Assembly (NCBI RefSeq): GCF_030384885.1 | Contig: NZ_CP128613.1 | Reading direction: 5' to 3' (one strand) | DNA: 64,000 nt | Source of the DNA: Escherichia coli | GTDB lineage: Bacteria > Pseudomonadota > Gammaproteobacteria > Enterobacterales > Enterobacteriaceae | Shown: piece by piece, positions 3,853 to 59,557 of the stretch | How the letters are laid out: every line of letters starts with the position of its first letter | How positions within the stretch are numbered: the stretch's first letter is position 1 | Program-made: the position numbers and the translations under genes | Notes under the pieces: generated by a model | Seen by the model: the letters and a program-made list of their open reading frames with translations, nothing else | What the model was told of the DNA's origin: nothing | The model's database searches: none

Positions 3853-4000
3853 TCATCTGATTTACAAAACACGCTAATTCGTCTTCCATAAACCATGACG
3901 ATTAAGATTTATACATAATGCGCTGCATTGAGGAATTCCCTGAATGTGATGCAAATCACTTCAAAGAGTGAGCAACAGTCAGTATCATCATGTGAGTTAA

Positions 4001-5397: not shown

Positions 5398-6963
5398 TTA
5401 TGCTGTTTTGGTGCGAATCAGGTAGTCAAAAGCACTCAGAGAAGCTTTGGCACCTTCGCCAGTGGCGATGATGATCTGCTTGTACGGAACCGTCGTACAG
5501 TCACCCGCAGCGAACACGCCTTTGACGTTGGTTTCGCATTTCGCATCAATGATAATCTCGCCCATGCGGTTACGTTCGACTGCGCCTTCGAGCCAGTTGG
5601 TGTTCGGCAGCAGACCAATCTGGACGAAAATACCGGCCAGTTCGATGTTGTGAATATCGCCGCTGACACGATCTCGATATTCCAGACCTACGACTTTGCT
5701 ACCGTCGCCTTTCACTTCCGTGGTTTGCGCATTCAGAATAATGTCGACGTTTTTCAGGCTGCGCAGTTTGTCCTGCAGAACCTGGTCGGCTTTCATTTCT
5801 GGCGCAAATTCCAGCAGCGTTACGTGCTCAACGATACCCGCCAGGTCGATTGCCGCTTCCACGCCGGAGTTACCGCCGCCGATAACCGCTACGCGTTTAC
5901 CTTTAAACAGCGGGCCGTCGCAGTGCGGGCAGTAGGTCACGCCTTTGGTGCGATACTGATCTTCGCCCGGAACGTTCATGTTGCGCCATTTTGCACCGGT
6001 CGCCACGATAATGCTGCGTGCTTTCAGTACCGCGCCAGAAGCTGTTTCAATCTGATGCAGGCCACCTTCAACCGCTGCCGGGATCAGTTTGCTGGCGCTC
6101 TGGCTGTCGATCACATCAACGTCGTATTCATCAACGTGAACTTTCAGCGCACCTGCCAGTTTCTGGCCTTCGGTCTTCGGTACAGAAATGTAGTTTTCGA
6201 TATCAACGGTATCGAGGATCTGACCACCAAAACGTTCGCCCATCAAACCAGTACGGATACCTTTACGTGCGGAGTAAATTGCTGCCGCTGCACCCGCCGG
6301 GCCGGAACCGACGATTAATACGTCATAAGCATCACGCTTGTTCAGCTCTTCTGCCGCACGTTTTTCCGCGCCAGTATCAATTTTGGCGACGATTTCAGTC
6401 AACGTCATGCGACCCTGACCAAACTCTTTCCCGTTTACGAACACTGCCGGAACGCCCATCACGTTGCGATCGGTGATTTCGTTCTGGAAGGTGCCGCCGT
6501 CAATTGCAGTGTGCTTGATGCGCGGGTTCAGTACGCTCATCAGGTTCAGCGCCTGCACCACATCCGGGCAGTTGTGGCAAGAGAGCGAGTAATAGGTTTC
6601 GAATTCAAAATCACCGTCAATATGGCGAATCTGCTCCAGCAGAGACTGCGCTTCTTTCGACGGATGACCACCGGTCCACAACAACGCCAGTACCAGCGAG
6701 GTAAACTCGTGGCCCAGCGGGGAACCTGCAAAACGTGGCCCCTGGTTGGAACCTGGGTTAGTGATCAGGAAAGACGGCTTACGCACCGGCAAGCTGTTAT
6801 CTTCTTTAAAGGTGACTTTGTCTGACAGTTCTGCGATTTCAGCCAACAGTTCCTTGATTTCTGCCGATTTAGCGCTGTCATCCAGCGTGGCAATTAACTC
6901 AACAGGCTTGGTCAATTTCTCAAGGTAAGCCTTGAGTTGAGTTTTCATATTTGTGTCGAGCAT
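5398..6963 (-). CDS. ahpF: alkyl hydroperoxide reductase subunit F (flavoprotein)
   Basis: ORF recognised as AhpF; start at MLDTNMKTQ (521 aa) supported by AGGAGA RBS; upstream in-frame ATGs at 6993 lack an RBS. Confidence 0.92.
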
Positions 6964-9023: not shown

Positions 9024-9926
9024 ATGGCTAATCTTTATGATTTAAAAAAATTCGACCTCAATTTACTGGTCATATTTGAGTGCATTTATCAACACCTCAG
9101 CATTAGCAAAGCAGCAGAATCATTATATATAACGCCATCTGCCGTGAGTCAGTCGTTACAACGTTTACGCGCGCAATTTAATGACCCGTTATTCATCCGC
9201 TCAGGGAAAGGTATCGCGCCGACTACAACAGGGTTAAATCTGCATCACCATCTTGAGAAAAATCTCCGAGGCCTTGAACAAACGATCAATATCGTTAATA
9301 AGTCTGAGCTGAAGAAAAATTTTATTATCTACGGTCCTCAGCTTATTTCTTGTAGTAATAACAACATGCTAATCCGCTGTCTAAGACAAGATACTTCAAT
9401 CGATATAGAATGCCATGACATACTGCTTTCAGCTGAAAACGCCGAAGAATTGTTAGTTCAACGCAAAGCTGACCTGGCAATCACGCTACAGCCGGTGATT
9501 AGCCGCTCCGTCATCTGTATGCCATTACACACCATTCGCAATTCTCTTATTTGTAGCAATAAACATCCTCGTATTACTGATACCAGTACCCATGAACAAA
9601 TTATGGCCGAAGAATTCACCCTGCTAATATCTAAATCAGCAGGAATTGATGAAATTCAAGTAGACATAGACGAACGATTTATGAACCGTAAAATTTCGTT
9701 TCGCAGTTCCTCTTTACTCACCATAATAAATAGCATTTCTGTTACTGACTTATTGGGAATTGTCCCTACCGAGCTGTACGATTTACATCGCAATTTCCTG
9801 AAACTAAAAGAAATAAAGTTGAAGCATCCTCTTCCTGCGGTCAAGCTTTATATTTCCTATAACAAATACTCGTTAAATAATCTGGTCTTCTCCCGTTTCA
9901 TAGACCGCTTAAATGATAGCTTCTGA
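9024..9926 (+). CDS. ybdO: LysR-family transcriptional regulator
   Basis: AT-rich ORF with N-terminal LysR-type HTH region; position matches ybdO; start at MANLYDLKKF with GGAG RBS. Confidence 0.78.
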   Translation: MANLYDLKKFDLNLLVIFECIYQHLSISKAAESLYITPSAVSQSLQRLRAQFNDPLFIRSGKGIAPTTTGLNLHHHLEKNLRGLEQTINIVNKSELKKNFIIYGPQLISCSNNNMLIRCLRQDTSIDIECHDILLSAENAEELLVQRKADLAITLQPVISRSVICMPLHTIRNSLICSNKHPRITDTSTHEQIMAEEFTLLISKSAGIDEIQVDIDERFMNRKISFRSSSLLTIINSISVTDLLGIVPTELYDLHRNFLKLKEIKLKHPLPAVKLYISYNKYSLNNLVFSRFIDRLNDSF

Positions 9927-48958: not shown

Positions 48959-50341
48959 TTATTGCTGCCAACCGCCCCCTAAGGCGGTATATAAAGAAAT
49001 TTCGTTAACCTGACGGGCATAATTCAGGTCGAGTAAAGTTTGTCGGGTTGCAAATAAGGAACGCTCGGCATCCAGCACTTCCAGATAACTTACCGCGCCG
49101 TGCTGATATAATGCCCGCGCCCGTTGCAACGTAATTTGCAGCGACGCCAGATAACGCTGCTGGGCGCTGATTTGATCGTTCAGGCTTTGACGTAATGCCA
49201 GCGCATCTGCCACTTCTTTAAAGGCGTTCTGAATTTTCTGTTCATAATTCACCACCGACTGCTGCTGGCGAATTTCGGCGATATCCAGATTGGCCTGGTT
49301 GCGTCCGGCATTAAAAATGGGGATCTGAATTTTGGGAATAAAATTCCACATCCCGCTGCTGGCGTTAAATAATGATGACAGATCGCTGCTGGCGGTTGAT
49401 ATTCCACTGGTCAGGCTTATAGACGGGAAAAATGCCGCACGCGCAGCACCAATATTGGCATTGGCCGCCATTAACGCGTGTTCAGCTTCCATAATATCCG
49501 GGCGCTGCAATAAGATTTGCGACGACAAGCCCGCCGGTAATTTAACGCTTTGCAGGCTGTCGCTGTTTACTGTCTGCGCTTGCGGCAGCTTGCCGTAGTT
49601 TCCCAATAACAGTTGCAATGCATTATTCGCCTGCGCCAGTTCCCCCTGACGTTTAGCGATATCACTGCGGGTACTTTCTATCACCCCGCGAGCCTGTTCC
49701 AGCGCCAGAACATTGCTGCTACCGGTCAACAGTTGTTTTTCAACAAACGCATATGACTGCTGATAATTACGCAGCGTTTCTTCGGCTATTTGTAATTGCG
49801 CATAAGCCAGTTGCTGATTGAAATAGCTTTGCGCGACATTAGAAACTAGCAGAATATGCACCGCGCGCTGAGCTTCCTCAGTGGCTAAATAATTTTGTCG
49901 CTCGGCTTCGCTCATGTTCTTTAAGCGACCGAAAAAATCGAGATCAAAGCTGGCGTTAAGGCCAGTCGAGAACTCCCGCGTCGTGGCTGAATCGCCTTTA
50001 AGATTGCCGCTCCAGCTGCCGCTACCCTCGCCATTGAGCTGCGGGTAGCGGTCGGCATCGGTCAGACGATATTGCGCCCGTGCCTCCTGCACTTTCAGTG
50101 TCGCCATGCGCAAATCCCGGTTATTCACCAGCGCCTCGCTAATCAGCGTCTTCACCTGATTATCAACAAAAAAGGTGCGCCAGCCCGCGTTCTGGTAGTT
50201 ATCTACCGCGTTAACCAGGCCGTTCTGGCTGAGTGAGAACTGCTGCGGCACGGGCATTGCCGGACGCTGATAATCCGGTGCCAGTGAACAACCGGTTAGC
50301 GCAAGGGCCACACAAAATGGCAGAAGTTTACAAGGAGACAT
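48959..50341 (-). CDS. cusC: Cu(I)/Ag(I) efflux outer membrane factor (lipoprotein)
   Basis: ORF recognised as CusC; start at MSPCKLLPFCVALALTGC lipobox; the ORF-track start at 50347 is a GTG two codons upstream. Confidence 0.9.
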   Translation of the reverse strand: MSPCKLLPFCVALALTGCSLAPDYQRPAMPVPQQFSLSQNGLVNAVDNYQNAGWRTFFVDNQVKTLISEALVNNRDLRMATLKVQEARAQYRLTDADRYPQLNGEGSGSWSGNLKGDSATTREFSTGLNASFDLDFFGRLKNMSEAERQNYLATEEAQRAVHILLVSNVAQSYFNQQLAYAQLQIAEETLRNYQQSYAFVEKQLLTGSSNVLALEQARGVIESTRSDIAKRQGELAQANNALQLLLGNYGKLPQAQTVNSDSLQSVKLPAGLSSQILLQRPDIMEAEHALMAANANIGAARAAFFPSISLTSGISTASSDLSSLFNASSGMWNFIPKIQIPIFNAGRNQANLDIAEIRQQQSVVNYEQKIQNAFKEVADALALRQSLNDQISAQQRYLASLQITLQRARALYQHGAVSYLEVLDAERSLFATRQTLLDLNYARQVNEISLYTALGGGWQQ

Positions 50342-50410
50342 AGGCACATAATTTCTGGTGATTTTATGCCGCCAACTTTACACGCCAGGCTCTGATTTTC
50401 CGGTGACAGG

Positions 50411-50432
50411 AAAATGACAAAATTGTCATTTT
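50411..50432. promoter_or_regulatory. CusR-box-like palindrome in divergent cusC / cusR promoter region
   Basis: aaaatgacaaaattgtcatttt is a perfect palindrome of the AAAATGACAA..TTGTCATTTT type. Confidence 0.6.
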
Positions 50433-50497
50433 GCCAATAAGCGATTGCCATCTGATCCCGCTACTCTAGAATTGCCCGGGCAACATGCGGAGGAAAT

Positions 50498-51181
50498 ATG
50501 AAACTGTTGATTGTCGAAGATGAAAAGAAAACCGGCGAATACTTAACCAAAGGGTTAACCGAGGCCGGTTTTGTGGTTGATTTGGCCGATAACGGGCTGA
50601 ATGGATATCATCTGGCGATGACAGGTGATTATGACCTGATAATCCTCGATATTATGCTGCCGGACGTGAACGGCTGGGATATTGTGCGCATGTTGCGTTC
50701 CGCCAATAAAGGGATGCCGATTCTGTTGCTTACCGCGCTTGGCACCATTGAACATCGCGTCAAGGGGCTGGAGCTGGGAGCGGATGACTATCTGGTGAAG
50801 CCGTTCGCTTTTGCTGAACTGCTGGCACGGGTGCGCACTCTACTGCGGCGCGGGGCGGCGGTAATTATCGAAAGTCAGTTTCAGGTTGCCGATTTAATAG
50901 TTGATCTGGTCAGCCGCAAAGTCACCCGCAGCGGCACGCGCATCACTTTGACCAGTAAAGAATTTACTCTGCTGGAGTTTTTCCTCCGCCATCAGGGTGA
51001 AGTGCTGCCCCGCTCGCTTATCGCCTCGCAGGTGTGGGACATGAATTTCGACAGCGACACTAACGCTATTGATGTGGCGGTGAAGCGGCTACGCGGCAAA
51101 ATCGACAATGATTTCGAGCCAAAGTTAATTCAGACCGTACGCGGCGTAGGTTACATGCTTGAGGTGCCGGATGGCCAGTAA
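50498..51181 (+). CDS. cusR: copper-responsive two-component response regulator (OmpR family)
   Basis: 227-aa ORF recognised as CusR; GGAGGA RBS. Confidence 0.93.
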
Positions 51182-52619
51182 GCCGTTTCAGCGCCCGTTT
51201 TCGCTGGCAACCCGCCTGACCTTTTTTATCAGCCTTGCCACCATTGCAGCGTTTTTCGTCTTTGCCTGGATCATGATCCACTCGGTAAAAGTGCATTTTG
51301 CCGAGCAGGATATTAATGATTTAAAAGAGATTAGCGCCACATTCAGGCGTGTTCTTAATCATCCCGAAGAGACACAAGCCCGACGCTTAATGACGCTGGA
51401 AGATATCGTCAGTGGTTATTCCAACGTGTTGATTTCTCTGGCAGATAGCCACGGTAAAACGGTGTATCACTCCCCCGGTGCGCCGGATATCCGCGAGTTT
51501 GCACGTGATGCCATACCCGATAAAGACGCTCGGGGCGGCAAGGTGTATCTCCTTTCCGGCCCGACAATGATGATGCCAGGCCACGGTCACGGGCATATGG
51601 AACACAGCAACTGGCGGATGATTAACTTGCCGGTTGGCCCGTTGGTGGACGGCAAACCGATTTATACGCTCTACATCGCGCTGTCTATCGATTTTCATCT
51701 TCATTACATTAATGATTTGATGAATAAACTTATTATGACCGCATCGATCATCAGCATCCTGATCGTCTTTATCATGCTGTTGGCGGTACATAAAGGCCAC
51801 GCGCCAATTCGCAGCGTCAGCCGTCAAATCCAGAACATTACCTCGAAAGATCTCGACGTTCGCCTTGACCCGCAGACCGTGCCGATTGAGCTGGAACAGC
51901 TGGTACTGTCGTTCAACCATATGATCGAGCGTATTGAGGATGTCTTTACCCGCCAGTCCAATTTCTCAGCGGATATCGCTCACGAAATTCGTACGCCAAT
52001 TACGAATCTCATTACGCAAACGGAAATCGCCCTCAGCCAGTCGCGCAGCCAGAAGGAGCTGGAAGATGTGCTCTACTCTAATCTCGAAGAGCTGACGCGA
52101 ATGGCGAAAATGGTCAGCGATATGCTGTTTCTCGCTCAGGCCGATAACAACCAGTTAATCCCCGAAAAGAAAATGCTCAACCTGGCGGATGAAGTTGGCA
52201 AAGTGTTCGATTTTTTCGAGGCGTTAGCGGAAGATCGCGGCGTAGCACTACGGTTTGTTGGCGACAAATGTCAGGTTGCGGGCGATCCGCTGATGCTGCG
52301 TCGGGCGCTAAGCAACCTGCTTTCTAACGCTCTGCGTTATACGCCGCCCGGAGAGGCAATTGTAGTGCGCTGCCAGACGGTCGATCACCAGGTGCAAGTT
52401 ACCGTCGAAAACCCCGGTACGCCCATTGCGCCCGAGCATTTACCGCGTTTGTTTGACCGTTTCTACCGCGTTGATCCTTCCCGCCAGCGAAAAGGTGAAG
52501 GTAGCGGCATTGGGCTGGCGATAGTGAAATCGATTGTTGTCGCGCATAAAGGCACGGTTGCAGTAACGTCAGATGCGCGGGGAACAAGGTTTATGATCAA
52601 ACTACCGGAGAAAGGTTAA
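51171..52619 (+). CDS. cusS: copper-sensing two-component histidine kinase
   Basis: ORF recognised as CusS; start placed at ATG 51171 ([10 protein letters not shown]), overlapping cusR end; the ORF-track start at 51159 is TTG. Confidence 0.88.
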
Positions 52620-53283
52620 TTAGTTAGTTCAAACTCAAAGAGTGATGTATCGCCTTCTGTTATTATTTATCAATAAAACAGGGAAGACCTTATTGGTCGT
52701 CTGAAATCGACGGTTATTCATTTTCGGATATTTACGAGATATTTAGATATGCAATTTAATCAAATTCGTGTTTCTACCAATTGTAGAGCACAATGCTATT
52801 ACTAAATTTTCATCACTATAAAAGAATCGGCTATAATATAAAGCGCAGTCAGGCATCATTAATCTCTATATTATTCACACAATCTATTTATCAAGTGAAT
52901 TTGATAAATTCCTAATTTAAAATATTCACTATTAAGCCAGCGTCTAACGACGTTAAGATGGCAATGTGCAGATCATGTTATCAGGGTGGGGCGGTAGCGT
53001 ATATTCCTTATACAAACCATCATTCATTTCAATAATGTTTATTGAGTTATTTATTATTGTGAATAAAAAGACATTACAAATATTGGTTTGACTTTGCATA
53101 TCAGGTGTTTTTTTTGTTACTCGATGTAATATACGAGCCTGTCCTTAATAACATCGTGAACCCGTCAGTTGAGTTTGTGATTATTTTGTTGAGTCAACAG
53201 CCCCCTGTTTCTCTGAAGTAAAATCCCGGACAAAATCATCACATAACCATGACACTTTTCTGATATTCCCCGGTAACGCCTGA

Positions 53284-54534
53284 AGCCTGCCCGCTTACCT
53301 GAAGGCGCAGTCTGCGGGCAGGCACCGGATAAGTGAAGAGACTGACCAGTATGCCGGAGGCCACCGGCTGAAACAGGCCGGAAACACGCAGTATGACTAT
53401 GACGCCGCAGGCCGGATGGTCAGCCGCACCAGGCACCGTGACGGCTACCGCCCGGAAACAGAGCGGTTCCGGTGGGACAGCCGGGACCAGCTGACCGGGT
53501 ATTGCAGCGCACTGGGGGTGCAGTGGGAATACCGCCACGACGCCAGCGGCAGACGGACGGAAAAACGCTGCGACCGGAAGAAAATCCGTTTTACGTACCT
53601 GTGGGACGGCGACAGTATTGCGGAAATGCGGGAATACCGGGATGATAAACTGTACAGCGTACGGCACCTGGTGTTTAACGGCTTTGAGCTGCTGAGTCAG
53701 CAGTTCAGCCGGGAAAGGCAGCCGCATCCGTCCGTGGCCCCGCAGTGGGTGACGCGGACGAGCCATGCGGTAAGCGACCTGACAGGCCGCCCGGTGATGC
53801 TCTTTAACAGTGAAGGTAAAACCGTCTGGCGGCCGGGACAGACCAGCCTGTGGGGGCTGGCACTCAGCCTGCCCGCAGACACCGGCTACCCGGACCCGCG
53901 CGGGGAACTGGACCCGGAAGCCGACCCCGGCCTGCTGTATGCAGGACAGTGGCAGGATGCAGAATCCGGGCTGTGCTATAACCGGTTCCGGTACTACGAG
54001 CCGGAAACCGGGATGTACCTGGTGAGTGACCCCCTGGGGCTGGCCGGGGGGGAGCAGACTTACCGGTATGTGCCTAATCCATGTGGGTATGTTGATCCTT
54101 TGGGATTAGCAACGTGTCCCATAATCAGACAGCGGGTGCTTGCTAACCTCGAAGCCAGTCGGGCAGCAAGAGTTACATCAAATTTTGGTAAGCCTCTGGT
54201 TCAGGGAAATAAAACGATTGGCGATAAAGTAAGGGATATAATTGCCAAAGAGAGGGGAACCACTCTAATTGAACAAAATTATAGAGTGACAGGAGGATTA
54301 AGGCGTATTGACGTTGTTGATGGAGTAACGGGTATTGAATCTAAAGTCGGTCGAACAGGGATAACTGCCCGAGTACGGCAAGAGGTAGCCCGTGATATTA
54401 AGATTTTGAGAAGTGGGCAACTTGATCAAATTGAATGGGTGTTTACAAGAAGTCCAACTACAGGGAAGATTGGGCCAACTAAACCACTTGAAGATCTGTT
54501 AAATAAACATGGTATACCGATTATTTATCGATAA
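53284..54534 (+). pseudogene. 5'-truncated Rhs remnant: ~275 aa of Rhs core C-terminus plus a ~141-aa polymorphic C-terminal toxin domain (orphan rhs-CT)
   Basis: open frame from 53284 with YD-repeat-like residues and the terminal DPxGL(x)nDPLGL motif; C-terminal domain begins at 54109 where GC content drops; first ATG at 53416; the >1000-aa N-terminal part of a full Rhs is absent. Confidence 0.7.
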
Positions 54535-54545
54535 GGAGTGATAGT

Positions 54546-55103
54546 GTGAAACTCAAACCGATTGGTGATTTTTTAATTAATAGTGGGTTCGTGAAAAATA
54601 GTGACACTGACTTTTATAAAGTGCATGATAAGTTTGTATACTGTATAAATTTTCAAAAAAAGAGCACGGGTGATATTTTTTTTATAAACACAGGTGTTCA
54701 TCCTATATTCGAAGGTTTTTGCAATGAACTACCAACAAAAGAAATAGATTGCTACATTCGTAATCGTGTGTGTGATGGACTAAGTATATCTTTGCTGAAT
54801 TCTTTTGAAGGTGATGAATTTGTTATCAATGAGATAAAGGATAAAGCGTTTTGTTTTTTTGAATACTTTGATTCATTGAATAAAATATTCGATAGTATTC
54901 GTGTTGTCGATATTGAAGAGAGAAATATTTGCGATGAGCTAAGTAATGTAAGTAGCGTAAGATTAGCTTTGATGTGTATGAACTACCAATATGAGAAAAA
55001 AAATTTGGGACTTGCTTCAGATTTTGCGAACTATGGTCTTGCTATATCTAGAGGCCCGGTACCGAAAAAAGCATTTAAGGATATGATAAAAAAAATAGAG
55101 TGA
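54546..55103 (+). CDS. putative cognate immunity protein of the Rhs-CT toxin
   Basis: 185-aa AT-rich ORF starting with GTG 7 nt after an AGGAG RBS and 12 nt after the rhs-CT stop; typical position and composition of Rhs immunity genes; no recognisable domain. Confidence 0.5.
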   Translation: MKLKPIGDFLINSGFVKNSDTDFYKVHDKFVYCINFQKKSTGDIFFINTGVHPIFEGFCNELPTKEIDCYIRNRVCDGLSISLLNSFEGDEFVINEIKDKAFCFFEYFDSLNKIFDSIRVVDIEERNICDELSNVSSVRLALMCMNYQYEKKNLGLASDFANYGLAISRGPVPKKAFKDMIKKIE

Positions 55104-55109
55104 TATCTA

Positions 55110-55425
55110 ATCCGCTGTAATGCCAATTGTCTGTGTACAGAGAAGGTTAACGGCCTGGATGAGACAATCGTCTACACATGGGACGCTGCAGGCCGCCTGG
55201 CAGAAATCATCGCCCCGGAAGGGAAAACGCAGTACGCGTATGACAAATCCGGCAGGCTGACGGGTATCTTCAGCCCGGACGGCATATCACAGCGCACCGG
55301 CTACGACGAACGCGGGCGGGTGAATGTCGCCACGCAGGGCAGACGGGCCATTGAATACCACTACCCAGGGAAAGATCACGTAACGCTGCTTTTTTGTACT
55401 AAACAATTCGAATTTTATGTTTAAA
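55110..55425 (+). pseudogene. internal Rhs core fragment (YD-repeat segment) without start codon
   Basis: translates to ...VYTWDAAGRLAEIIAPEGKTQYAYDKSGRLTGIFSPDGISQRTGYDERGR..., i.e. Rhs YD repeats, ending in a short divergent tail; GC-rich. Confidence 0.5.
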
Positions 55426-55509
55426 AATTGAGATATTCCTCATTACCTGAAGCTGTTTTTTATTGCTTATACATGATCAAATACTCCTTACATAATTAAG
55501 GAGAACAAA

Positions 55510-56643
55510 ATGGAACTTAAAAAATTGATGGAACATATTTCTATTATCCCCGATTACAGACAAGCCTGGAAAGTGGAACATAAATTATCGGACATTCTAC
55601 TGTTGACTATTTGCGCCGTTATTTCGGGTGCAGAAGTTTGGGAAGATATAGAGGATTTTGGGGAAACACATCCCGATTTTTTGAAGCAATATGGTGATTT
55701 TGAAAATGGTATTCCTGTTCACGATACCATTGCCAGAGTTGTATCCTGTATCAGTCCTGCAAAATTTCACGAGTGCTTTATTAACTGGATGCGTGACTGC
55801 CATTCTTCAGATGATAAAGACGTCATCGCAATTGATGGAAAAACACTCCGGCATTCTTATGACAAGAGTCGCCGCAAGGGAGCGATTCATGTCATTAGTG
55901 CGTTCTCAACAATGCACAGTCTGGTCATCGGACAGATCAGGACGGATGAGAAATCCAATGAAATTACAGCTATCCCAGAACTTCTTAACATGCTGGATAT
56001 TAAAGGAAAAATCATCACAACTGATGCGATGGGTTGCCAGAAAGATATTGCAGAGAAGATACAAAAACAGGGAGGTGATTATTTATTCGCTGTAAAAGGA
56101 AACCAGGGGCAGCTAAATAAAGCCTTTGAGGAAAAATTTCCGCTGAAAGAATTAAATAATCCAGAGCATGACAGTTACGCAATGAGTGAAAAGAGTCACG
56201 GCAGAGAAGAAATCCGTCTTCATATTGTTTGCGATGTCCCTGATGAACTTATTGATTTCACGTTTGAATGGAAAGGTCTGAAGAAATTATGCGTGGCAGT
56301 CTCTTTTCGGTCAATAATAGCAGAACAAAAGAAAGAGCCAGAAATGACGGTCAGATATTATATCAGTTCTGCTGATTTAACCGCAGAGAAGTTCGCCACA
56401 GCAATCCGAAACCACTGGCACGTGGAGAATAAGCTGCACTGGCGTCTGGACGTGGTAATGAATGAAGACGACTGCAAAATAAGAAGAGGAAATGCAGCAG
56501 AATTATTTTCAGGGATACGGCACATCGCTATTAATATTTTGACGAATGATAAGGTATTCAAGGCAGGGTTAAGACGTAAGATGCGAAAAGCAGCCATGGA
56601 CAGAAACTATCTGGCGTCAGTCCTTGCTGGGAGCGGGCTTTAG
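55510..56643 (+). CDS. H-repeat-associated protein (ISAs1-family transposase)
   Basis: 377-aa ORF recognised as YhhI/YdcC/YbfD-type H-rpt protein; AAGGAGAA RBS; sits downstream of the Rhs fragments as in Rhs elements. Confidence 0.85.
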
Positions 56644-56681
56644 TGAGTAGGCCACCGGAACCTCCCCGACAGCCTCTCGCA

Positions 56682-56715
56682 GAACCGTACGTGAAACTCT
56701 CGCTTCATACGGCTC
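56682..56715 (-). ncRNA. group II intron catalytic domain V
   Basis: minus-strand sequence GAGCCGUAUGAAGCGAGAGUUUCACGUACGGUUC matches the domain V consensus (AGC triad, GUAU...ACGUAC helix) just 3' of the RT stop. Confidence 0.75.
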
Positions 56716-56718
56716 CCG

Positions 56719-58041
56719 TCAGGCAAACGCGCTTCCTGGTCCTGCTTTCCAGTGGGCAAACAACTCCGGCTTCTCTTTTGACAGCCTTTCCATTAGCTGA
56801 CACGCCTTCGTCTTTCTATACCGCAGGGTTTTATATTTCTTTCTCGCCCACGCAATCAGCGTCAGATTAATATATCTGCATACTTTCTTCATCGCTGATT
56901 TGTGGTATCTCGCGTAATAATTCAGCCACCCCGATATTATCGGATTCAGCCACTTCGCAATATCTTCGAGACTCATCTCCACCCTGCGTCTGATCCACAG
57001 TTTCCTGAGTTTTCCAATCATGCCTTTCTGCGCACGGTTACTCGCCGCCGGGCTGAAACTCGTAAAGAGGTTCCCCCGCCGGTGGTTACGTGCTCTTCGC
57101 GCTCTGAACGTATACCCCAGAAAATCAAACTGCACTGTTTCATGGTTCGCCTGTCGTTCGCTGTCTTTGCAGTAAACTATTTTCGTTTTCTCCGGATGTA
57201 ATTCCAGTCCACATTCCTGAAAACGTTTTGCCAGCTTATTCAGTAATTCCTCTGCCTGTTGTTTACTGCCACAATGAATTAATCCATCATCTGCATAACG
57301 GCACCAGGGAATTTCCGGATAATGTAACGTCAGCCATTTATCAAACACATAGTGCAGAAATAAATTCGCCAGTACCGGGCTGATGACTCCACCCTGTGGC
57401 GTACCTTTATTTCTTTCCTTCAGTGTTCCATCCGGCATCTGCACCGGCGCTGTCAGCCAGCGGCGAATAGACAGTCTTACCCATTTATCCGCACAATGTT
57501 TATCTACTGCCCTGAGTAATAAATCGTGGGGGATATTATCGAATAACCCTTTAATATCAAACTCAAGACACCAGTCGTATTGCCAGCAACGTTTTCTGGT
57601 GACTGCTATTGCATCCAGCGCTGATTTTCCATGCCGGTATCCGTATGAATCATTCAGGAAATAACGCTCCACTAATGGTTCAAACGTTACCAGCACCGTC
57701 ATCTGCGCTATTCGATCGCTTACTGTCGGTATTCCTAAAAGTCTTTTGCTGCCATCCTTCTTCGGAATTTCCACCGCACGCACTGGCGGCGGCATCCAGC
57801 TTCCCGACGATAACCTGTTCCAGATTTTGTACAGATTTCCTTTCAGATCCCGCTCAAAATCTTTCAGCGTCTGGTTATCCACTCCGGCAGCTCCGGCATT
57901 CGCCTTTATCCGCCGGTACGCTTCCACCACATGCAATTTACTGACCTGAAACGGTTTTGTCTGTTCACACACAGCCTCCTCCTGCCTACAGTTGGGCTGT
58001 GATGCAGACTGCCCGACGCTGTCCCTTCGCTCCACGTTCAT
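56719..58041 (-). CDS. group II intron-encoded reverse transcriptase/maturase
   Basis: RT motifs including GAAGVD, GTPQGGVISP and YADD; start placed at MNVERRDS (about 440 aa); the 505-aa ORF to 58236 probably over-extends into intron domains I–III. Confidence 0.82.
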   Translation of the reverse strand: MNVERRDSVGQSASQPNCRQEEAVCEQTKPFQVSKLHVVEAYRRIKANAGAAGVDNQTLKDFERDLKGNLYKIWNRLSSGSWMPPPVRAVEIPKKDGSKRLLGIPTVSDRIAQMTVLVTFEPLVERYFLNDSYGYRHGKSALDAIAVTRKRCWQYDWCLEFDIKGLFDNIPHDLLLRAVDKHCADKWVRLSIRRWLTAPVQMPDGTLKERNKGTPQGGVISPVLANLFLHYVFDKWLTLHYPEIPWCRYADDGLIHCGSKQQAEELLNKLAKRFQECGLELHPEKTKIVYCKDSERQANHETVQFDFLGYTFRARRARNHRRGNLFTSFSPAASNRAQKGMIGKLRKLWIRRRVEMSLEDIAKWLNPIISGWLNYYARYHKSAMKKVCRYINLTLIAWARKKYKTLRYRKTKACQLMERLSKEKPELFAHWKAGPGSAFA

Positions 58042-58543
58042 TACAAACGCTTCCTCACTACTACGAACAGCTCTGCCCCGGTTTCGCACATCGATACTCT
58101 CATACTCATAATTTCGGTTATTTGTATTTCTCTCTTGACATTGCGACGACCGGTTCCCGTAGTTCCTGCAAAGAGCCCGATACAGCGTCATGCCTGCTAT
58201 ACACCGGACATCATTCACGCAGCATTCGGAATTCACCCGTAAATTAATCCCGGCGGTATCACGAAACCTCCGGTTTTGATGTCACTTAGGACTAACGACG
58301 TTTCAACACAGGTTCGGGTTTACTCATCTCACTGTATCTCACATAGGATCAGATCTCGTCTGATCGTTCCCCCTGCGCTCACTACCATGGCTCTTTACCA
58401 CAGCAGCCGGGGTTGTTTGGGACCGACTTCCGACAGCAGATCCCGGTGGGCCTGCCACCATCTCTTCACAAGCTTATGCTTATTACATGCAAAACGTCCC
58501 GTTTTGCATCTTTGTGCCTACGGCACACCGTAATCTTTCCCTG

Positions 58544-59300
58544 TGTCATTAGTGCGTTCTCAACAATGCACAGTCTGGTTATCGGACAGATCAAGACGGA
58601 TGAGAAATCCAATGAAATTACAGCTATCCCTGAACTTCTTAACATGCTGGATATTAAAGGAAAAATCATCACAACTGATGCGATGGGTTGCCAGAAAGAT
58701 ATTGCAGAGAAGATACAAAAACAGGGCGGTGATTATTTATTCGCTGTAAAAGGAAATCAGGGGCGGCTTAATAAAGCCTTTGAGGAAAAATTTCCACTGA
58801 AAGAATTAAATAATCCAGAGCATGACAGTTACGCCATTAGTGAAAAGAGTCACGGCAGAGAAGAAATCCGTCTTCATATTGTTTGCGATGTCCCTGATGA
58901 ACTTATTGATTTCACGTTTGAATGGAAAGGTCTGAAGAAATTATGCGTGGCAGTCTCCTTTCGGTCAATAATAGCAGAACAAAAGAAAGAGCCAGAAATG
59001 ACGGTCAGATATTATATCAGTTCTGCTGATTTAACCGCAGAGAAGTTCGCCACAGCAATCCGAAACCACTGGCACGTGGAGAATAAGCTGCACTGGCGTC
59101 TGGACGTGGTAATGAATGAAGACGACTGCAAAATAAGAAGAGGAAATGCAGCAGAATTATTTTCAGGGATACGGCACATCGCTATTAATATTTTGACGAA
59201 TGATAAGGTATTCAAGGCAGGGTTAAGACGTAAGATGCGAAAAGCAGCCATGGACAGAAAGTATCTGGCGTCAGTCCTTGCGGGGAGCGGGCTTTCGTAA
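58544..59300 (+). pseudogene. 5'-truncated second copy of the H-repeat transposase gene
   Basis: near-identical to residues ~129-377 of the 55510-56643 ORF from [11 protein letters not shown] onward; lacks the N-terminal third. Confidence 0.8.
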
Positions 59301-59557
59301 TCTTTCCCTGCCCTGCTCACCTCCTCCAGGCACTTCCACAACATGATGACCTGATCGGTTGCCGCCTATCCTCCTCACTATGACCTTCACCTCCGCGCTT
59401 TTGCCTACATCCTGCACAATCGGCAACTTTTATAACCAGTGTAAAAATAACGTGCCGCAATAATCCTACCTATTAATGATAAAAAGCTGTCACAATTCAT
59501 AAAAAACTTTAATATACGCCACCCTAAACATAACCAGCGTTAATGTAAGGTTTTTGT

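What the first reader, a model, noticed from the sequence alone, without database searches (positions are those of the whole stretch)
52620..53283. About 650 bp AT-rich, ORF-less segment between cusS and the Rhs remnant
No ORF of 60 aa or more is present on either strand, in a strongly AT-rich stretch that abuts the GC-rich Rhs core fragment. It could be a decayed immunity or orphan gene, an H-NS-silenced island border, or carry a promoter or small RNA. Its composition contrasts sharply with both neighbours.
Basis: seen in the sequence. Interest (0 to 1): 0.35.

Follow-up and report, generated by a model that had tools for sequence, protein, structure and literature searches.

The report
Leftover upstream DNA of deleted vgrG–rhs operon
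The AT-rich gap after cusS is the non-coding upstream region of a known toxin-delivery (type VI secretion vgrG–eagR–rhs) gene island, left behind when a 6-kb deletion removed the genes it used to precede; it is ordinary, apart from a deletion breakpoint that recurs in other strains.

Summary
Window 52620-53283 is 33% GC, lies between cusS (51% GC) and an Rhs core (64% GC), and contains no ORF of 60 aa or more. That ORF-lessness is what chance gives at this composition.

The segment is not cusS–nfrB spacer. It is the left end of a 6.8-kb island (52607-59408) that K-12 lacks. It is 99.9% identical to the DNA upstream of vgrG in strains with an intact cusS-adjacent vgrG–eagR–rhs locus (the EHEC "vgrG-2 orphan locus"). 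In this window a 6.07-kb deletion fused the leader, 67 nt upstream of the vgrG ATG, to the last 1.2 kb of rhs (junction 53297/53298).

The proximal 413 bp are about 90% identical to the leader of the second orphan locus (vgrE/rhsE). In K-12 that paralogue is reported as H-NS-bound, with an RNA polymerase SELEX peak and a weak PhoB ChIP peak.

No ORF is conserved between alleles, there is no Rfam hit, and there is no significant RNA fold.

One oddity remains. Four independent truncated alleles (this window, NCCP12480, K-12 rhsE, strain 3036) all break the leader within the same 8 nt, at CGCTTA.

The parts
51171..52619 (+). cusS. The last ~13 nt (from ~52607) differ from the K-12 allele, giving a C-terminus ...[11 protein letters not shown] in place of ...TRFVITLPA.
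   Evidence: Annotation of the 99.9%-identical L001; blastn against MG1655 ends at 52606.
52620..52884 (+). Distal leader, specific to the cusS locus. It is AT-rich, absent from K-12, and unrelated to the equivalent spacer at the rhsE locus. It holds a weak terminator-like hairpin at 52694-52716.
   Evidence: A vs B alleles 42-88% identical; A vs rhsE-type about 30-50%.
52885..53297 (+). Shared leader module, found upstream of both orphan vgrG loci (cusS-adjacent vgrG-2 and yncH-adjacent vgrE/rhsE).
   Evidence: 100% identical to L001, about 90% to the rhsE-type leader and about 80% to the B-type leader. Present in 4613 of 5426 genomes, median 2 places per genome.
52855..53013 (+). Most conserved block, the candidate regulatory core. 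It holds an imperfect 17-nt inverted repeat (82% complementary) whose outer 7 nt, AGTGAAT/ATTCACT, match perfectly (52894-52930), an H-NS-nucleation-like TTGATAAATT (52901-52910), the palindrome TAACGaCGTTA, and a promoter-like TTATCA-16-TATATT (52978-53005).
   Evidence: Sliding identity of 85-98% A vs B. The functional assignment is inference.
53088..53120 (+). Counterpart of the K-12 yncH>rhsE SELEX promoter TTGACT-17-TATTAC. Here it reads TTGACT-21-TGTTAC, so the spacing is broken in this allele.
   Evidence: PMC3946193; sequence; alignment.
53248..53265 (-). Counterpart (1 mismatch) of the PhoB ChIP-seq motif TATCAGAAAAATGTCATG found upstream of K-12 rhsE. It is oriented antisense to vgrG.
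   Evidence: PMC10294691, Table 1, peak 1527862, ChIP score 1, flagged H-NS-bound; sequence.
53296..53298 (.). Deletion junction, with 2-nt TA microhomology. Leader position -67 relative to the lost vgrG ATG is fused to the rhs core. 6073 bp of the intact locus are missing: the 66-bp proximal leader, vgrG, eagR, and the first 3.6 kb of rhs.
   Evidence: Window 50000-53297 matches L001 5381-8678 at 99.9%; window 53296-54080 matches L001 14752-15536 at 95.7%.
53285..53323 (+). Perfect 10-bp inverted repeat GCCTGCCCGC-N19-GCGGGCAGGC created across the junction. It is extended by CCGGT/ACCGG.
   Evidence: (-31.6 kcal/mol, z = -3.5).
53298..54534 (+). Rhs remnant: the end of the core with the DPxGL motif, plus a C-terminal toxin domain. 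The first possible start codon is at 53416 (372 aa).
   Evidence: RHS_repeat, Rhs_assc_core.
54546..55103 (+). Candidate cognate immunity gene (DUF4304), intact.
   Evidence: called as a gene in Logan contigs.
55120..59408 (.). Rest of the island: an orphan rhs fragment (55120-55366), ISAs1 (55510-56643), a group II intron with RT/maturase (56642-58459, minus strand) inside a second ISAs1 copy (58413-59300), then the nfrB upstream DNA.

Best explanation
The segment is the non-coding 5' upstream (leader and promoter) region of the cusS-adjacent orphan type VI secretion locus vgrG-eagR-rhs. It was stranded by a 6.07-kb deletion of the illegitimate-recombination type, with a 2-nt TA microhomology at the junction. 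That deletion removed the proximal 66 bp, vgrG, eagR and the first 3.6 kb of rhs.

Shown:
- identity with the leader of intact loci and synteny with them;
- the exact junction;
- the absence of conserved ORFs and of RNA-family or RNA-structure signals;
- the modular make-up: 265 bp specific to the cusS locus, then 413 bp shared with the vgrE/rhsE locus.

Inferred:
- In intact strains the conserved core (52855-53013) carries the distal promoter and operator of vgrG, and the whole AT-rich tract is coated and silenced by H-NS, as reported for the 90%-identical K-12 paralogue.
- In this strain the leader is a relic. At most it supplies weak, H-NS-repressed transcription into the Rhs C-terminal fragment and its DUF4304 immunity gene, giving the same architecture as K-12 rhsE-ydcD.
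- The recurrent left breakpoint is most simply explained by the motif CGCTTA. It is the only copy in the B-type and rhsE-type leaders, and one of two in the A-type leader carried by this window, of the (C/G)GCT(T)A motif that the YD-repeat codons reiterate 16-20 times in the deleted DNA. That would favour slipped or short-homology joining at this spot.
For: - Identity and junction.
- Island boundaries against K-12.
- Population: the full leader sits next to cusS in about 2340 genomes, the empty site is in 2326, and the module is in 4613 of 5426.
- Intact loci are annotated vgrG / DcrB-related (EagR) / RHS. The locus is named the vgrG-2 orphan locus Z0700-Z0707 in EHEC (PMC12981562, PMC5363993, PMC7216683).
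- The K-12 paralogue is H-NS-bound, has an RpoD SELEX site and a weak PhoB peak.
- No conserved ORFs. No Rfam hit or RNA structure.
- Conserved core.
- Motif counts for the breakpoint: leader 1-2 copies, deleted body 16-20 copies.
- The same allele occurs in a few Logan assemblies.
Against: - No expression, TSS or H-NS data exist for this allele or for the cusS-locus leader. The H-NS evidence is borrowed from a 90%-identical paralogue.
- Promoter-like hexamers are no more frequent than in shuffles.
- The K-12 SELEX promoter has broken spacing here (21 nt) and a 12-nt deletion in the B allele.
- The microhomology account of the hot spot is weak. Exact k-mers at the site are not unusually common in the deleted DNA, the homologies used are only 2-4 nt, and the NCCP12480 junction lies 8 nt further on, at a site that lacks the motif.
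Confidence: 0.8

Rival explanations
1. The leader/vgrG boundary (CGCTTA|TCWCATTA) is a cryptic site-specific recombination or element-end site. The 16 nt to its right are a displaced copy of the K-12-type cusS 3' end, left by an integration into cusS. Recurrent deletions with one fixed end and variable far ends would then be enzyme-mediated (integrase pseudo-site use, or transposase-type adjacent deletion), not random slippage.
For: - Four independent alleles break within 8 nt in three leader backgrounds, at far sites X (twice), Y and Z.
- The K-12 cusS tail TTATCACATTACCCGC matches the B leader's TTATCACATTATCCGC at 15 of 16 positions, immediately right of the hot spot. The local-alignment score is 27, against a shuffle mean of 15.5, sd 2.1 and maximum 28 in 300 shuffles.
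- All island-bearing strains lose K-12 homology 16-19 nt before the cusS stop.
- The 8-nt offset between junctions resembles a recombinase overlap region (inference).
Against: - No integrase or transposase is associated with the site.
- There are no terminal inverted repeats and no matching repeat at the island's right end.
- The alignment significance is modest and was noticed post hoc.
- The same boundary occurs at the rhsE locus, which has nothing to do with cusS.
- No further hot-spot alleles turned up in two metagenome scans. The patterns excluded the K-12-type and NCCP12480-type junctions by design.
Confidence: 0.12
2. The segment is a decayed protein-coding gene, such as an old immunity or orphan gene.
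For: Small ORFs exist: a 48-aa ORF on the minus strand and a 25-aa ORF on the plus strand are intact in both the A and rhsE-type alleles.
Against: Both ORFs are frameshifted in the commonest (B) allele. The indels of 1, 4 and 12 nt in the conserved block include lengths that are not multiples of 3. The region is unannotated in thousands of PGAP-annotated genomes. The open-frame lengths equal the shuffle expectation.
Confidence: 0.03
3. The segment encodes a small RNA or a structured cis-regulatory 5' UTR.
For: A roughly 160-bp block is far better conserved than its surroundings. If the TTATCA-16-TATATT promoter is real, intact strains would have a 5' UTR of about 350 nt.
Against: There is no Rfam match even at E<=1. 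Fold z-scores run from -1.4 to +0.1 on either strand. No terminator follows the block. The element is confined to Escherichia, so covariation cannot be tested.
Confidence: 0.07
4. The segment is ordinary core-genome spacer DNA holding the cusS terminator and the nfrB promoter.
For: It lies directly after cusS, and a weak terminator-like hairpin sits at 52694-52716.
Against: The K-12-type cusS-nfrB spacer (149 bp) corresponds to window 59409-59557, not to this segment. The segment is absent from 2326 genomes that carry the empty site.
Confidence: 0.01

Closest known systems
E. coli K-12 rhsE pseudogene locus (yncH-rhsE'-ydcD-H-repeat)
   Same: The 396-bp leader module is 90.7% identical. The leader is fused directly to a 5'-truncated Rhs core at the same leader nucleotide (CGCTTA). 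It is followed by a C-terminal toxin tip, a small immunity-type ORF and ISAs1 (H-repeat) copies. The leader is reported as H-NS-bound, with RpoD SELEX and PhoB peaks.
   Different: The chromosomal site differs (yncH/pptA instead of cusS/nfrB). The far breakpoint in the core differs: about 2.0 kb of rhs is retained there, 1.2 kb here. The toxin/immunity pair differs. The 265-bp distal part is absent.
Intact cusS-adjacent orphan T6SS locus vgrG-eagR(DcrB-related)-rhs ('vgrG-2 orphan locus', Z0700-Z0707 in EHEC EDL933; strain 2013C-4282 here)
   Same: The cusS flank and leader are the same (99.9% to 2013C-4282; 76-85% to the common B allele found in BL21, O157 and others).
   Different: Those loci keep the 66-bp proximal leader, vgrG, eagR and full-length rhs. 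The window has lost them.
H-NS-silenced AT-rich promoter regions of horizontally acquired T6SS genes (e.g. the EHEC T6SS, which becomes active in an hns mutant)
   Same: An AT-rich tract (33% GC) at the edge of an acquired island, upstream of T6SS genes. The paralogue is listed as H-NS-bound.
   Different: H-NS binding or silencing has not been measured for this locus. Only one near-consensus nucleation motif is present.
Short-homology (illegitimate) deletions and IS-type adjacent deletions
   Same: 2-4 nt microhomologies at the junctions. One end is fixed and the far ends vary among alleles.
   Different: No IS end sits at the fixed breakpoint, and the microhomologies are too short to explain the nucleotide-level recurrence.

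Membership tests
Leader of the cusS-adjacent vgrG-eagR-rhs orphan T6SS locus | Lies immediately downstream of cusS, on the same strand | tested here: met
   window 50000-53297 is collinear with L001 5381-8678.
Leader of the cusS-adjacent vgrG-eagR-rhs orphan T6SS locus | Sequence identity with the DNA upstream of vgrG in intact loci | tested here: met
   99.8-100% to NZ_CP027579; 76-85% to the B allele.
Leader of the cusS-adjacent vgrG-eagR-rhs orphan T6SS locus | Followed by vgrG with its Shine-Dalgarno sequence and ATG | tested here: not met
   The proximal 66 bp, vgrG, eagR and 3.6 kb of rhs are deleted. The leader abuts the rhs core at 53297/53298.
H-NS-bound xenogeneic AT-rich DNA | AT content well above the genome average over several hundred bp | tested here: met
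   GC is 0.334, against 0.515 for the whole window.
H-NS-bound xenogeneic AT-rich DNA | Physical H-NS occupancy and derepression in an hns mutant | not testable with these tools
   Only the K-12 paralogue upstream of rhsE is listed as H-NS-bound (PMC3946193, PMC10294691).
H-NS-bound xenogeneic AT-rich DNA | High-affinity nucleation motif TCGATAAATT | tested here: inconclusive
   One 9/10 match at 52901-52910, inside the conserved block. There are 12 such matches in the whole window, against 4.6 expected.
Small RNA / structured RNA element | Match to a curated RNA family, or a fold more stable than shuffles, with a terminator | tested here: not met
   No Rfam hit in the segment. Fold z-scores run from -1.4 to +0.1.
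Pseudogene / decayed ORF | A reading frame recoverable across alleles | tested here: not met
   No ORF is intact in all of the A, B and rhsE-type alleles. A six-frame Pfam scan could not be run.
Pho regulon promoter (PhoB box) | Direct-repeat pho box placed upstream of a -10 hexamer on the transcribed strand, with PhoB-dependent expression | tested here: inconclusive
   A motif counterpart with 1 mismatch is present at 53248-53265, but it is antisense to vgrG. The K-12 peak has ChIP score 1 and expression was not determined.
5'-truncated Rhs element of the K-12 rhsE type | Leader fused to a partial core, followed by a C-terminal tip, a small downstream ORF and an H-repeat (ISAs1) | tested here: met

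The most novel reading that the evidence does not exclude
The boundary between the AT-rich leader and the vgrG-proximal 66 bp (CGCTTA|TCWCATTA) would be a cryptic recombination site. It carries a displaced copy of the ancestral cusS 3' end. Under this reading it still directs recurrent deletions that have one fixed end, strip vgrG-eagR-rhsN, and keep the toxin tip and immunity gene. That would be a semi-programmed route by which E. coli converts T6SS effector loci into immunity-only relics such as K-12 rhsE.
Probability: 0.12. Interest if true: 0.45.

Novelty: already known. Interest (0 to 1): 0.18.

Why it matters
It mainly matters for annotation. The gap should be labelled as the relic leader of a deleted vgrG-eagR-rhs operon, at the left border of a 6.8-kb island, and not as a candidate new gene or sRNA.

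Two minor points could be of use.
- The roughly 160-bp conserved core shared by both orphan vgrG loci is an obvious place to look for the uncharacterised regulation of these effector islands, including H-NS and possibly PhoB.
- Four independent truncations start at the same few nucleotides. This suggests a preferred route for decay of Rhs effector loci into immunity-retaining remnants, and it could be tested experimentally.

Tried and rejected
- Rfam at E<=1 and at gathering thresholds: nothing in the segment.
- RNA folding of six sub-regions: only the junction hairpin stands out.
- ORF conservation across alleles: none.
- Promoter and terminator scans: counts no higher than in shuffles.
- Species-representative genome scan with an invariant 20-mer: one hit, a MAG labelled Citrobacter. 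The flanks I compared (about 15% of the contig) match E. coli yncG/ansP DNA, and the hit carries yet another deletion. The element is therefore essentially Escherichia-only and covariation analysis is impossible.
- Two metagenome scans for further junctions at CGCTTA: none, and then one intact allele carrying a SNP. The patterns excluded the K-12-type and NCCP12480-type junctions by design.
- Explanations tested for the hot spot:
  - Chi sites: none nearby.
  - Terminal inverted repeats or a MITE-like structure: none.
  - Abundance of exact k-mer microhomology: not exceptional.
  - A direct repeat of the cusS tail at the island's right end: none.
  - Common descent of the window and NCCP12480 junctions: unlikely. 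The leaders are different alleles right up to the junction, and the cores are 95.8% identical, no closer than unrelated alleles.

Full report
**Observation.** Window 52620-53283 is 33.4% GC. It lies between cusS (51.4% GC, stop codon at 52617-52619) and a 63.5% GC Rhs core. The largest ORF wholly inside it is 48 aa. A 175-aa antisense ORF from the GC-rich Rhs core overlaps its last 45 bp. The compositional contrast is real. The lack of ORFs is not informative: 55% of shuffles of the segment contain a stop-free stretch of 60 aa or more, and the observed maximum (63 aa) is close to the shuffle median of 61 aa.

**What the DNA is.** A megablast search against 5,426 complete E. coli genomes found the segment, or part of it, in 3,833 genomes, with no feature annotated under the match in any of the 30 records listed.

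- The best hit is strain 2013C-4282 (99.8%). There the same DNA lies between cusS and a vgrG / DcrB-related (EagR chaperone) / RHS effector operon.
- Pairwise blastn shows window 50000-53297 matching that locus at 99.9%. Window 53296-54080 then matches a stretch 6,073 bp further on, inside rhs, at 95.7%.
- The window therefore carries a deletion of the proximal 66 bp of leader, vgrG, eagR and the first 3.6 kb of rhs.
- The junction is ...CCCGCTTA|CCTGAAGG... at 53297/53298, with a 2-nt TA microhomology. It lies 67 nt upstream of where the vgrG ATG would be.
- In the EHEC literature this locus is the "vgrG-2 orphan locus" (Z0700-Z0707; vgrG, eagR, rhsF). The paralogous yncH-side locus is the "vgrE orphan locus" (Z2253-Z2262) (PMC12981562, PMC5363993, PMC7216683).

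**Island or core genome.**

- Against MG1655, homology stops at 52606, inside the last codons of cusS, and resumes at 59409 with the 149-bp nfrB upstream spacer.
- The whole stretch 52607-59408 is therefore an island, and the segment is its left end.
- The rest of the island is:
  - the Rhs remnant (53298-54534);
  - an intact DUF4304 immunity candidate (54546-55103);
  - an orphan rhs fragment;
  - ISAs1;
  - a group II intron inserted in a second ISAs1 copy.
- In the complete-genome collection, about 2,340 genomes have the full leader next to cusS. Most carry a B allele about 76% identical to this one. Eighty-one records are at 99% or above and eight more at 95-99% for the allele seen here.
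- 2,326 genomes have the K-12-type empty site.
- This exact junction is in none of the 5,426 genomes and in none of the metagenome contigs scanned. It does occur in a handful of Logan read-set assemblies.

**Anatomy of the leader.** An alignment of the A (window), B and rhsE-type leaders shows two parts.

- The distal 265 bp (52620-52884) exist only at the cusS locus.
- The proximal 413 bp (52885-53297) form a module shared with the vgrE/rhsE locus. It is about 90% identical there, and present in 4,613 of 5,426 genomes, with a median of two places per genome.
- Conservation peaks at 52855-53013 (85-98% between alleles that are 42-88% identical in the distal part). This block contains:
  - an imperfect 17-nt inverted repeat (82% complementary) whose outer 7 nt, AGTGAAT/ATTCACT, match perfectly (52894-52930);
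  - a 9/10 match to the H-NS nucleation motif (52901-52910);
  - the palindrome TAACGaCGTTA;
  - a promoter-like TTATCA-16-TATATT (52978-53005).
- Promoter-like matches are no more frequent than in shuffles, so this assignment is inference.
- A second promoter-like site, TGTACA-16-TATTAT, lies in the 66 bp that the window has lost.

**Published evidence on the K-12 paralogue.**

- The yncH>rhsE spacer is listed as an RpoD-holoenzyme SELEX site with H-NS binding and a predicted promoter TTGACT-17-TATTAC (PMC3946193). The counterpart here is 53088-53120, but with a 21-nt spacer, and the B allele has a 12-nt deletion at that point. That promoter is therefore not conserved.
- A weak PhoB ChIP-seq peak (score 1) at 1527862, flagged as H-NS-bound, has the motif TATCAGAAAAATGTCATG (PMC10294691). 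Its counterpart is 53248-53265, with one mismatch, oriented antisense to vgrG.

**Alternatives tested.**

- No ORF of 20 aa or more is intact in all three alleles. Indels of 1, 4 and 12 nt interrupt the two best candidates.
- There is no Rfam match at E<=1 or at gathering thresholds.
- RNA folds of the leader are no better than shuffles, with z-scores from -1.4 to +0.1.
- The module is essentially confined to Escherichia. An invariant 20-mer hit one of about 100,000 species-representative genomes. That hit is a MAG contig labelled Citrobacter. The flanks I compared (about 15% of the contig) match E. coli yncG/ansP DNA at 92-95%. Covariation therefore cannot be assessed.

**An unexpected regularity.** Truncated versions of both orphan loci exist in other strains, and four of them break the leader within the same 8 nt.

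| Allele | Locus, leader type | Junction | Far site in rhs core |
|---|---|---|---|
| This window | cusS, A | CCCGCTTA\|CCTGAAGG | X |
| NCCP12480 | cusS, B | CCCGCTTATCACATTA\|CCTGAAGG | X |
| K-12 rhsE | yncH, rhsE-type | CTCGCTTA\|ACCACCC | Y |
| Strain 3036 | yncH, rhsE-type | CTCGCTTAT\|GCTTATGAT | Z |

- The window and NCCP12480 differ in leader allele right up to the junction. Their retained cores are 95.8% identical, no closer than unrelated alleles. Common descent is therefore unlikely.
- Three other truncations break elsewhere. BL21 breaks inside vgrG. Strain H2 has an IS1 directly after the retained part of the leader. The MAG contig breaks at about 52966.
- Chi sites, terminal inverted repeats and exact k-mer abundance do not explain the clustering.
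- The best mundane explanation concerns the motif (C/G)GCT(T)A. CGCTTA is its only occurrence in the B and rhsE-type leaders, and one of two in the A leader. The YD-repeat Arg/Gly-Tyr codons repeat the same motif 16-20 times in the deleted DNA.
- That explanation is incomplete: the homologies actually used are only 2-4 nt, and the NCCP12480 junction lies outside the motif.
- The 16 nt just right of the hot spot match the K-12-type cusS 3' end at 15 of 16 positions. The alignment score is 27, against a shuffle mean of 15.5 and a maximum of 28 in 300 shuffles. This hints that the hot spot coincides with an old insertion boundary in cusS. The support is modest and post hoc.
- In this window the junction also creates a perfect 10-bp hairpin, extended by 5 bp (z = -3.5).

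**Verdict.** The finding is real but ordinary. It is the relic upstream region of a known orphan T6SS effector locus, at the border of an island, most probably H-NS-bound, and with the same architecture as K-12 rhsE. "Decayed gene" and "small RNA" are not. The recurrent breakpoint is the only feature that might repay further work.

Noticed in passing
window 56642-58459 (minus strand): A complete group II intron is inserted into an ISAs1 copy whose 3' part is 58413-59300. Rfam hits are Intron_gpII at 56642-56717 and group-II-D1D4-2 at 58342-58459. The 505-aa RT/maturase ORF is 56719-58236 and matches TIGR04416 at E = 7e-128.
   Followed up: partly
window 53285-53323: The deletion junction creates a perfect 10-bp GC-rich inverted repeat (GCCTGCCCGC/GCGGGCAGGC), extended by CCGGT/ACCGG. 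In intact A-type loci the two arms lie 6 kb apart, one in the leader and one in rhs. Chance complementarity of this length next to both breakpoints is unlikely (roughly 1e-3), and its meaning is unknown.
   Followed up: partly
window 52597-52619 vs MG1655 593328-593350; L007 ~9394-9410: Island-bearing strains have a different CusS C-terminus (...MIKLPEKG) from K-12-type strains (...VITLPA). The K-12-type tail sequence TTATCACATTACCCGC reappears, matching at 15 of 16 positions, about 690 bp downstream, just right of the leader's recurrent breakpoint.
   Followed up: partly
L008 (NZ_CP068680, NCCP12480) 6060-6090; L016 (NZ_CP103544, strain 3036) 3900-3925; L004 (MG1655) 3900-3925: Three other strains carry independent leader-to-rhs fusions that start within 8 nt of the window's junction. 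NCCP12480 uses the identical rhs nucleotide as the window.
   Followed up: yes
L010 (DXKH01000108.1, MAG labelled Citrobacter sp.): The 7.9-kb contig carries yncG/ansP-side DNA 92-95% identical to E. coli over the parts compared (about 1.1 kb). It also has a remnant of the leader module joined directly to the DNA upstream of ISAs1. This is another deletion form of the rhsE locus, and the contig may be mis-binned.
   Followed up: partly
window 54081-54534: The C-terminal tip of the Rhs remnant has no Pfam hit at E<=1e-3. It contains a D...ESK motif (IDVVDGVTGIESK) reminiscent of PD-(D/E)xK restriction-endonuclease-fold toxins. The downstream ORF matches DUF4304.
   Followed up: no
window 55120-55366: A short orphan rhs core fragment (89% identical to L001 14018-14264) lies between the immunity candidate and ISAs1. 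This suggests an earlier displacement of a toxin tip.
   Followed up: no
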